Source: Escherichia coli (GTDB lineage: Bacteria > Pseudomonadota > Gammaproteobacteria > Enterobacterales > Enterobacteriaceae). From it: a stretch of DNA of 23,721 bases. A program made the translations under genes and the position numbers. This document shows positions 21,300-21,640 of the stretch, piece after piece. Within the stretch, counting starts at the first letter, position 1. Each line of letters begins with the position of its first letter. The notes beneath the pieces are model-generated. The model was not told where the DNA came from. It saw only the letters and a program-made list of their open reading frames with translations, and did no database searches. The stretch lies in NCBI RefSeq assembly GCF_003334815.1, contig NZ_QOWO01000049.1, one strand, 5' to 3'.

Positions 21300-21640
21300 A
21301 AAATATAACCTGAATACTACTATCCATAGTATAAGGCGAGTATATCATTTCAAAAAACAGAGTATAGAGGCGAGTATAGAGCATATCAAAAACAGAGTAC
21401 ACTCTAGACTATACTCTATATAACATACTGAATTTGCTGAGATACTCTAATCAGAGTATAGACATACTCTGATTAGAGTATAAATAGAGTGTGGTTATAC
21501 TCCACACTGAGACATCACAATCAAAAAGACACCTTTACAATAATCATAACATACTGTTTTACATTACTAATCATGCAAGATTAAATCTTGCGACGGGTGT
21601 GGGACTTTGATGTTAAGGAGCAGGCATATGAAAATTAGCT
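21300..21640 (+). other. Origin of transfer (oriT) with putative nic site between 21600 and 21601 on the plus strand
   Basis: Between traM and gene X as in F. Inverted repeat GCAAGATT-A-AATCTTGC (21575-21591) followed by GACGGGTGT/GGGACTTT, paralleling the F arrangement GCAAAAACTTGTTTTTGC-GTGGGGTGT/GGTGCTTT (recalled). Orientation predicts gene X side transferred first. Confidence 0.7.
21335..21510. repeat. Repeat array in oriT, likely TraM binding sites
   Basis: Direct repeat GGCGAGTATA at 21335-21344 and 21369-21378, with AAACAGAGTA at 21355-21364 and 21390-21399 (about 34-bp period); perfect inverted repeat TACTCTAATCAGAGTA (21443-21458) / TACTCTGATTAGAGTA (21465-21480); further AGAGTGTGG/CCACACT inverted repeat near 21486-21508. 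Confidence 0.6.

What the first reader, a model, noticed from the sequence alone, without database searches (positions are those of the whole stretch)
21335..21510. Ordered array of direct and inverted repeats in oriT, candidate TraM sites
A roughly 34-bp unit is repeated in tandem (GGCGAGTATA...AAACAGAGTA at 21335-21364 and 21369-21399), followed by a perfect 16-bp-arm inverted repeat (21443-21458 / 21465-21480) whose arms are themselves quasi-palindromic around AGAGTA/TACTCT. In F, TraM binds three sites (sbmA, sbmB, sbmC) built from similar short repeats between oriT and traM. The motif here (AGAGTA-based) would define this plasmid's TraM specificity class.
Basis: partly seen in the sequence, partly recalled or inferred. 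Interest (0 to 1): 0.35.

Follow-up and report, generated by a model that had tools for sequence, protein, structure and literature searches.

The report
TraM binding-site array in plasmid oriT

Summary
There is a 35-bp tandem repeat at 21328-21399.

Both are built from one pentamer, GAGTA/TACTC. It occurs 10 times in the 338 bp between traM and the nick site, against about 1.2 in shuffles.

The window is a pED208-related F-like plasmid, with traM, oriT and an SLT gene in the usual order. Its nic core, GGGTGT|GG at 21595-21602, is identical to that of pED208.

TraM here is about 65% identical to pED208 TraM, whose complex with GANTC DNA has been solved. The base-reading beta-strand differs: R3/Q5/F7 here, K3/Q5/Y7 in pED208.

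Across 29 plasmids the strand type predicts the motif without exception:
- R-Q-F type: 8-13 GAGTR and 0-2 GANTC.
- K-Q-Y type: 10-15 GANTC and no GAGTR.

The motifs sit at the same distances from the traM start codon in both classes. The motif does not follow the neighbouring regulator genes, which differ among plasmids.

I file this as a new, experimentally uncharacterised specificity allele of the known TraM-sbm system. Binding itself is inferred, not shown. Interest is modest.

The parts
20876..21262 (-). traM coding sequence (128 aa, starts MPRIQTFVSN). The N-terminal ribbon-helix-helix domain has R3/Q5/F7 on the DNA-reading beta-strand.
   Evidence: ORF list. NCBIfam TraM equivalog 156.7 bits against a cut-off of 104. 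PDB 3ON0 pED208 TraM E = 8e-49. Protein alignment. AGGAG lies 6 nt upstream of the ATG, seen as CTCCT at 21268-21272 on the + strand.
21328..21399 (.). Cluster I: the promoter-proximal tandem repeat (period 35, 2.1 copies). It carries direct GAGTA motifs at 21338-21342, 21360-21364, 21372-21376 and 21395-21399, plus a degenerate TAGTA at 21327-21331.
   Evidence: TRF; repeat families D1, D2, D11; motif coordinates; conserved in all R-Q-F-class relatives.
21361..21389 (-). Best promoter-like match for traM: -35 TTGATA at 21389-21384, 17-nt spacer, -10 TATACT at 21366-21361. The -10 overlaps the GAGTA at 21360-21364. A second, weaker match lies at 21353-21326.
   Evidence: Consensus scan, 10/12 and 9/12 matches. 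This is a pattern match only, and the motif itself resembles a -10 box.
21395..21416 (.). Cluster II: the four-motif site GAGTA-CACTC-ta-GACTA-TACTC, with centres 5, 7 and 5 bp apart. It is the positional and geometric counterpart of the pED208 GATTC-GAATC-ca-GATTC-GAATC palindrome.
   Evidence: Motif centres at +135, +140, +147, +152 from the ATG here, against +134, +139, +146, +151 in pED208. The 12-bp separation between first and third, and between second and fourth, motifs is as described for the crystallised sbmA.
21442..21481 (.). Cluster III: the 40-bp perfect palindrome. It is two 18-bp units, ATACTCT-N4-AGAGTAT, 22 bp apart. Four strong motifs (TACTC, GAGTA, TACTC, GAGTA) lie at exact 11-bp steps, and weaker TAATC and GATTA lie in the unit centres.
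   Evidence: Inverted repeat I3, 18/18; motif coordinates; unit analysis across relatives; DNA fold.
21487..21508 (.). A further motif pair, GAGTG at 21487-21491 and TACTC at 21498-21502, continuing the 11-bp series. It is embedded in a 7-bp-stem inverted repeat, AGTGTGG / CCACACT.
   Evidence: Relatives have GAGTA...TACTC at this position.
21575..21591 (+). Nic-proximal inverted repeat GCAAGAT-TAA-ATCTTGC, the counterpart of F's GCAAAAAC-TT-GTTTTTGC.
   Evidence: Conserved in both TraM classes.
21595..21602 (+). Nic core GGGTGT|GG on the transferred strand. The predicted nick is between 21600 and 21601.
   Evidence: Identical to pED208. It matches F's GGGGTGT|GGTGC and lies on the strand opposite the traM coding strand, as in F. 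It starts 332 nt after the traM ATG in 14 of the first 19 loci examined, both classes included; in three more it starts 320-344 nt after the ATG, and in two the exact-pattern search found no match.

Best explanation
The repeats are the array of TraM binding sites (sbm sites) of an F-like, pED208-related plasmid.

How the sites are read: each GAGTR/YACTC pentamer would be the docking site for one ribbon-helix-helix dimer formed by two TraM N-termini. A TraM tetramer carries two such dimers, so it grips two pentamers 11-12 bp apart on one face of the helix.

The array has three clusters:
- Cluster I (21328-21399) overlaps the likely traM promoter and would give autorepression.
- Cluster II (21395-21416) has the 5/7/5 four-motif geometry that in pED208 binds two tetramers cooperatively on opposite faces of underwound DNA.
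- Cluster III (21442-21502) is nearest to nic. By analogy with F sbmC, it would tether the relaxosome to the coupling protein TraD.

How the word differs from pED208: compared with pED208 GAWTC, G1, A2 and T4 are kept, while position 3 becomes G and position 5 becomes A/G. This parallels Lys3 to Arg and Tyr7 to Phe on the beta-strand, with Gln5 kept; Gln5 is the residue that reads the A-T pairs.

Shown here: the repeats, their enrichment, their conservation, and their covariation with the TraM strand type.

Inferred: binding itself, stoichiometry, the function of each cluster, and which residue change causes which base change.
For: 1. TraM identity: NCBIfam equivalog above cut-off; E = 8e-49 and about 65% identity to pED208 TraM.

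2. Location: all motifs lie between the traM ATG and a nic core identical to that of pED208.

3. Enrichment: 10 GAGTA against 1.2 +/- 1.1 in shuffles, Poisson p = 2e-12.

4. Covariation in 29 loci:
- 15 R-Q-F-type loci (one of them R-K-F) have 8-13 GAGTR and 0-2 GANTC.
- 9 K-Q-Y loci of the pED208 clade, plus 2 distant K-Q-Y loci (R1-like and Klebsiella types), have 10-15 GANTC and no GAGTR.
- 3 F-type K-N-Y loci have at most 2 GAGTR and no GANTC, but carry A(G/C)CG(G/C)T.

5. Position: motif centres coincide between the classes, at +78, +112, +135, +140, +147, +152, +183, +194, +205, +216 and +238.

6. Base pattern: G1, A2 and T4 of the sites are invariant across both classes, while positions 3 and 5 switch. 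This matches the published contacts, in which Gln5 reads A-T and Tyr7/Lys3 read G-C (PMC3159463).

7. Conservation: within the R-Q-F class, motif columns are far more conserved than the columns between them (0.91 against 0.72; 60% against 13% invariant; p = 1.5e-11).

8. Independence from neighbours: three different gene sets lie next to traM (Cox+XRE; a 93-aa 'TraJ'; none, in orphan oriT-traM modules), yet all share the same array.

9. Phasing: spacings of 11-12 bp and a best period of about 11.5 bp in most loci (10.5 bp in the window), as expected for tetramers with two DNA-binding modules.
Against: - There is no binding experiment for this TraM class.
- The covariation rests essentially on one evolutionary switch between two clades, so it counts as many sites but few independent events.
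- GAGTR is not a palindrome, whereas the RHH dimer is symmetric. The true recognition unit could therefore be longer or shifted; the extended consensus is aGAGTAta.
- The reverse complement TATACT resembles a -10 box, so the promoter calls may be a by-product of the motif.
- Two of the four motifs in cluster II are degenerate in this window (CACTC, GACTA).
- I could not retrieve the exact sequence of the crystallised pED208 sbmA oligonucleotide. Its equation with the +134 to +151 palindrome is inferred from the geometry described in the paper.
Confidence: 0.85

Rival explanations
1. The 40-bp palindrome works as a hairpin in the transferred single strand, or as a cruciform, instead of or in addition to being a protein-binding site. 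It might act, for example, as a structural signal late in transfer.
For: The 18/18 arms fold into a very stable DNA hairpin, z = -8.8. In the window, pCoo and, independently, L010, complementarity between the two units is perfect (18/18) while each unit's own palindromy is lower (14-16/18). L010 differs from the window by a paired change at the outer positions.
Against: Across the class the long complementarity is not maintained, ranging from 11 to 16 of 18 in other members. In L004, L006 and L009 each unit is a perfect palindrome instead. What stays constant is the quartet of pentamers, not the pairing. Any two similar palindromic units are automatically complementary to each other. The element lies about 115 bp from nic, and the nic-proximal inverted repeat used by F-type relaxases is a different element at 21575-21591.
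Confidence: 0.07
2. The pentamers are bound by another protein rather than by TraM. Candidates are a TraY-like accessory factor, the Cox-like or XRE-like regulator encoded next to traM, or a host factor.
For: F-like oriT regions also carry TraY and IHF sites. This plasmid has unusual regulators beside traM.
Against: No TraY-domain gene lies between traM and traA in the window. Among the loci examined, the Cox/XRE pair is shared only with L018. Other plasmids with the same GAGTR array carry different neighbours or none. A host factor would not switch its motif together with the TraM beta-strand inside one host range. No match to the IHF consensus lies in the array.
Confidence: 0.05
3. The repeats are the relaxase recognition element and nick site of oriT. 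GAGTGTGG at 21487-21494 superficially resembles the F nic core.
For: GAGTGT-GG resembles GGGTGT-GG and is preceded by an inverted repeat.
Against: A much better nic core with its own proximal inverted repeat lies at 21575-21602. It is identical to that of pED208 and conserved in all loci, whereas 21487-21494 varies and reads GAGTA in relatives.
Confidence: 0.01
4. The pattern is chance or a compositional artefact of an AT-rich intergenic region, or a recent local duplication without function.
For: The region is AT-rich and contains a recent-looking tandem duplication.
Against: The enrichment far exceeds dinucleotide-preserving shuffles. The motifs are conserved at fixed positions in plasmids whose oriT is only 70-84% identical. 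Motif columns are far more conserved than spacer columns.
Confidence: 0.02

Closest known systems
pED208 (IncFV) TraM-sbmA system (crystal structure 3ON0; Wong et al. 2011, PMC3159463)
   Same: The TraM proteins are homologous (about 65% identity). The nic core is identical and starts 332 nt after the traM ATG in both. The number, positions and 11-12-bp phasing of the pentamer sites agree, including the 5/7/5 four-motif site. G1, A2 and T4 of the pentamer and Gln5 of the protein are all conserved.
   Different: The pentamer is GAGTR rather than GAWTC. The beta-strand is R3/F7 rather than K3/Y7. The alpha1-alpha2 loop is two residues longer. The nic-proximal cluster has been regularised into a perfect 40-bp palindrome with exact 11-bp steps. 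The plasmid has no TraJ or TraY genes next to traM.
F plasmid sbmA, sbmB and sbmC sites
   Same: The sites lie between the traM promoter and nic. There are several clusters, the promoter-proximal ones suited to autoregulation and the nic-proximal one suited to relaxosome function. The nic core and its inverted repeat have the same orientation.
   Different: F TraM (K3/N5/Y7) reads the unrelated 6-bp word A(G/C)CG(G/C)T. The F-type upstream regions examined have at most 2 GAGTR and no GANTC. TraM identity to F is only about 33%.
R1-type and Klebsiella-type TraM (K3/Q5/Y7) with GANTC arrays
   Same: They follow the same rule linking beta-strand residues 3, 5 and 7 to the repeated pentamer, with 10-15 copies upstream of traM.
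   Different: They use GAATC/GATTC. TraM identity to the window protein is only 35-39%.

Membership tests
F-like TraM-sbm (relaxosome accessory protein and its oriT sites) | An adjacent gene encodes a TraM homologue with an N-terminal RHH domain and a C-terminal tetramerisation domain. | tested here: met
   NCBIfam equivalog NF010267, 156.7 bits against a cut-off of 104. Full-length match to 3ON0 chain A, E = 8e-49.
F-like TraM-sbm (relaxosome accessory protein and its oriT sites) | The sites lie between the traM start and the nic site of oriT. | tested here: met
   Motifs span +67 to +240 from the ATG. The nic core starts 332 nt after the ATG, is identical to that of pED208, and is homologous to F's in sequence and strand.
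F-like TraM-sbm (relaxosome accessory protein and its oriT sites) | A short repeated word occurs in several clusters, with pairs 11-12 bp apart, and there is a four-word site with two-fold symmetry. | tested here: met
   12 GAGTR sites at steps of 11, 12, 22 and 23 bp. Four-word 5/7/5 site at 21395-21416, and four-word palindrome with 11-bp steps at 21442-21481.
F-like TraM-sbm (relaxosome accessory protein and its oriT sites) | The word covaries with the residues of the TraM beta-strand (allelic specificity). | tested here: met
   29 loci with no exception.
F-like TraM-sbm (relaxosome accessory protein and its oriT sites) | Promoter-proximal sites overlap the traM promoter (autoregulation). 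| tested here: inconclusive
   Consensus promoter matches overlap the motifs at 21360-21364 and 21338-21342. The motif itself resembles a -10 box, and no transcript start is known.
F-like TraM-sbm (relaxosome accessory protein and its oriT sites) | Direct, sequence-specific binding of TraM to the sites. | not testable with these tools
   Needs EMSA or footprinting.
pED208/R1 GANTC specificity class | GANTC pentamers are repeated in oriT, and TraM has K3/Q5/Y7. | tested here: not met
   The window has 1 GANTC against 13-15 in the pED208-clade members (10-15 if the two distant K-Q-Y plasmids are included). The strand is R3/Q5/F7. It is therefore a relative of this class but not a member of it.
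Relaxase nic-proximal inverted repeat | The inverted repeat lies immediately 5' of the nic core on the transferred strand. | tested here: not met
   The palindrome at 21442-21481 ends 113 nt before the nic core (about 119 nt before the predicted nick). The element that fits is 21575-21591.
TraY (sby) sites | The plasmid encodes a TraY-domain protein, and the sites lie between the sbm cluster and nic. | tested here: not met
   No TraY-like ORF lies between traM and traA. The motif arrays persist in plasmids with and without TraY.

The most novel reading that the evidence does not exclude
The R3/Q5/F7 TraM proteins form an uncharacterised specificity allele that is functionally orthogonal to pED208. 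A symmetric RHH dimer would read an asymmetric GAGTR word: it keeps one G-A half-site, relaxes the other, and gains a requirement for the central G. Because the nic core and its proximal repeat are identical in the two classes, TraM-sbm co-evolution alone would decide which of these co-circulating plasmids, and which orphan oriT-traM modules, can use which transfer machinery. The 11-bp-stepped palindrome could then load two tetramers on one face of B-form DNA, rather than on opposite faces of underwound DNA as in the solved complex.
Probability: 0.5. Interest if true: 0.45.

Novelty: new member of a known kind. Interest (0 to 1): 0.3.

Why it matters
TraM binding to its sbm sites is the step that couples a particular oriT to a particular transfer apparatus, so it sets plasmid specificity in F-like conjugation.

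The class seen here is common in E. coli, including enterotoxigenic strains (pCoo, pETEC_74), and in Salmonella, Citrobacter and Enterobacter. 216 PLSDB plasmids carry a TraM of this wider clade.

Knowing its word (GAGTR) and the three residues that go with it has three uses:
- It lets one predict which plasmids and orphan oriT-traM modules can mobilise each other.
- It improves oriT annotation.
- It offers a clean natural two-residue swap (K3R, Y7F) for testing how ribbon-helix-helix proteins read bases.

It does not change the picture of how the relaxosome works.

Tried and rejected
1. I first took GAGTGTGG at 21487-21494 for the nick site. I rejected this once the conserved inverted repeat plus GGGTGT|GG at 21575-21602 was found to be identical to pED208 and homologous to F.

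2. An IHF consensus search (WATCAANNNNTTR, up to 1 mismatch) found no site between traM and the SLT gene, and the count in the whole window was below chance. IHF sites remain unlocated.

3. I looked for the exact pED208 sbmA oligonucleotide in Wong et al. 2011. The sequences are only in the figures, and no supplement is held. The equation with the +134 to +151 palindrome is therefore inferred from the described geometry.

4. A literature search for GAGTA + TraM + oriT with 'anywhere' matching returned only irrelevant papers. Reviews and comparative papers on F-like plasmids do not mention this class or word. Absence from the open-access library is not proof of novelty, and the 1991-2002 pED208 oriT papers are not held.

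5. I tested whether the long palindrome is maintained by compensatory change. The results were mixed and inconclusive.

6. Helical periodicity (Rayleigh R 0.5-0.7, best period about 11.5 bp in most loci and 10.5 bp in the window) is suggestive only, because the period was scanned.

7. I did not use the large protein-database searches or structure prediction. They would not have changed the verdict.

Full report
**Observation.**
- Tandem Repeats Finder reports one array at 21328-21399: period 35, 2.1 copies, 85% matches.
- The repeat finder reports the identical 11-mers AGGCGAGTATA at 21334 and 21368, and a perfect inverted repeat with 18-nt arms at 21442-21459 / 21464-21481, 4 nt apart.
- Each arm is a quasi-palindrome, ATACTCT-N4-AGAGTAT.
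- All of these elements are built from one pentamer, GAGTA/TACTC. It occurs 10 times in the 338 bp from the traM start to the nick site. Five thousand dinucleotide-preserving shuffles give 1.23 +/- 1.07, with a maximum of 6. The rest of the window has 22 copies in 23.4 kb, so Poisson p = 2e-12.

**Context.** The window is the start of the transfer region of an F-like plasmid.
- traM lies at 20876-21262 on the - strand. It matches the NCBIfam TraM equivalog at 156.7 bits against a cut-off of 104.
- traA, traL and further tra genes lie downstream of it. An SLT transglycosylase gene lies at 21732-22238 on the + strand.
- The closest solved relative of TraM is pED208 TraM in PDB 3ON0, E = 8e-49, at about 65% identity.
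- The closest plasmids are E. coli plasmids such as pCoo (NC_007635) and CP088376, about 98% identical over traM-oriT.
- On the + strand at 21575-21602 lies GCAAGAT-TAA-ATCTTGC-GAC-GGGTGT|GG. This is identical in pED208 itself. It is homologous to F's GCAAAAAC-TT-GTTTTTGC-GTG-GGGTGT|GG, which likewise lies on the strand opposite the traM coding strand.
- The nic core starts 332 nt after the traM ATG in 14 of the first 19 loci examined, both classes included. In three more it starts 320-344 nt after the ATG, and in two the exact-pattern search found no match.

The repeats therefore lie exactly where TraM sites lie in F and pED208, between the traM promoter and nic (PMC3159463; PMC12117103).

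**What the published pED208 work says.** The N-termini of two TraM chains form a ribbon-helix-helix dimer.
- Its beta-strand residues Lys3, Gln5 and Tyr7 read the pentamer GANTC.
- Gln5 reads the A-T pairs. Tyr7, helped by Lys3, reads the G-C pairs.
- A tetramer has two such dimers and binds two pentamers 12 bp apart.
- At sbmA, two tetramers bind four pentamers cooperatively on underwound DNA.
- A lone pair of pentamers binds best at 11-bp spacing.
- Residues 3 and 5 were shown to set allelic specificity between F and R100.

**The comparison.** I collected the traM-oriT region of 28 other plasmids.

Two beta-strand types occur in the pED208-like clade: MPRIQTFV (the window type) and M(P/A)KIQTYV (the pED208 type). 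The strand type predicts the repeated word without exception:
- 15 R-Q-F-type loci have 8-13 GAGTR and 0-2 GANTC.
- 9 K-Q-Y loci of the pED208 clade have 13-15 GANTC and no GAGTR.
- 2 distant K-Q-Y plasmids (R1-like and Klebsiella types, 35-39% identical to the window protein) have 10 and 15 GANTC and no GAGTR.
- 3 F-type K-N-Y plasmids have at most 2 GAGTR and no GANTC, but carry the F word A(G/C)CG(G/C)T.

The last two groups serve as positive controls for the method.

The motif centres coincide between the classes. In the window they are at +78, +100, +112, +135, (+140), (+147), +152, +183, +194, +205, +216, (+227) and +238. In pED208 they are at +56, +78, +89, +111, +134, +139, +146, +151, +182, +193, +200, +205, +216 and +238.

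In the alignment, G1, A2 and T4 of the sites are invariant over both classes, while positions 3 and 5 switch. This pattern is expected if the conserved Gln5 still reads the A-T pairs and the changed residues 3 and 7 read the rest.

Within the R-Q-F class, motif columns are far more conserved than the columns between them: majority frequency 0.91 against 0.72, 60% against 13% invariant, p = 1.5e-11.

**Control for neighbours.** The window has no TraJ or TraY next to traM. It has instead a Phage_Cox-domain protein at 19837-20136 on the - strand (Pfam E = 1e-20) and a divergent XRE-type regulator at 20234-20545 on the + strand.
- Among the loci examined, only L018 shares this pair.
- pCoo-like plasmids carry a different 93-aa 'TraJ'.
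- The Enterobacter and Pectobacterium loci are orphan oriT-traM modules.
- All of them keep the GAGTR array.

The word therefore follows TraM and not its neighbours.

**Anatomy and likely mechanism.**
It overlaps the two best promoter-like matches for traM, which suggests autorepression as in F. This step is inferred, and the motif itself resembles a -10 box.
- Cluster II (21395-21416) is GAGTA-CACTC-ta-GACTA-TACTC. It has the same 5/7/5 geometry and the same position as the only four-GANTC palindrome of pED208. That palindrome fits the description of the crystallised sbmA, an inference because the oligonucleotide sequence was not retrievable.
- Cluster III (21442-21502) carries six words at 11-bp steps and is nearest to nic, so by position it is the analogue of F sbmC. 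Its 40-bp perfect palindrome is two 18-bp units. The perfect complementarity between units is specific to certain lineages (window, pCoo, L010), whereas the four words are constant.

**Rivals.**
- A hairpin or cruciform role for the palindrome cannot be excluded. It is not supported across the class.
- Binding by another protein is contradicted by the neighbour control.
- A relaxase site is excluded by the conserved nic element at 21575-21602.
- Chance is excluded.

**Limits.** No binding data exist. The covariation reflects essentially one evolutionary switch. GAGTR is asymmetric while the dimer is symmetric. IHF sites were not found.

**Novelty and score.** TraM sites and their allelic specificity are textbook for F-like plasmids, and the architecture here is that of pED208. 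What appears undescribed in the literature I could search is this particular allele, R3/Q5/F7 reading GAGTR. I file it as a new member of a known kind, a relative of the pED208 GANTC class but not a member of it, and of modest interest (0.3).

Noticed in passing
window 19785-20545: Between traM and traA there is no TraJ and no TraY. Instead there is a Phage_Cox-domain protein (19837-20136, - strand; Pfam E = 1e-20) and a divergently transcribed XRE-type HTH protein (20234-20545, + strand). This looks like a phage-type two-repressor switch in the place of the usual tra regulators. Among the loci examined, only L018 (CP099215) shares it. The closest oriT relatives carry a different 93-aa 'TraJ'.
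   Followed up: partly
window 21575-21602: The nic-proximal inverted repeat plus nic core (GCAAGATTAAATCTTGC GAC GGGTGT|GG) is identical to that of pED208 even though the TraM word differs. Relaxase recognition and TraM recognition therefore seem to have evolved independently in this clade.
   Followed up: partly
L008 (NZ_CP074171), L011 (CP033467), L017 (NZ_KT351734): These are orphan oriT-traM(-SLT) modules with intact GAGTR arrays, on plasmids typed as mobilizable (L008, L011) or as carrying a different mating-pair system, MPF_T (L017). They are candidates for mobilisation in trans by R-Q-F-class F-like plasmids.
   Followed up: no
window 21860-21906: A 47-bp near-perfect palindrome (23-nt arms, 91% complementary, 1 nt apart) lies inside the coding sequence of the SLT transglycosylase gene in the leading region.
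   Followed up: no
window 21662-21685: A terminator-like hairpin (AACGGGCATTGCCGTT followed by a T-run) lies on the + strand between nic and the SLT gene start.
   Followed up: no
window 20876-21262 (TraM residues 28-33): The alpha1-alpha2 loop of this TraM is two residues longer than in pED208 (GATENDATVSS against GIEE--ASLSN), as in F, R1 and R100. Wong et al. link this loop to DNA kinking, so the preferred site spacing could differ.
   Followed up: no
L027 (NZ_CP074161) 581-904: This TraM is truncated (108 aa) and has Lys at position 5 (MPRIKTFV), next to an IS21 element. It still lies beside 12 GAGTR words and is possibly a decaying module.
   Followed up: no
window 21442-21481 compared with L010: The window and L010 both have a perfect 18/18 inverted repeat, but they differ by a paired change at the outer positions (ATACTC...GAGTAT against ATACTC...GAGTGT / ACACTC...GAGTAT). 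This could be a compensatory change or palindrome homogenisation by template switching. It remains unexplained.
   Followed up: partly
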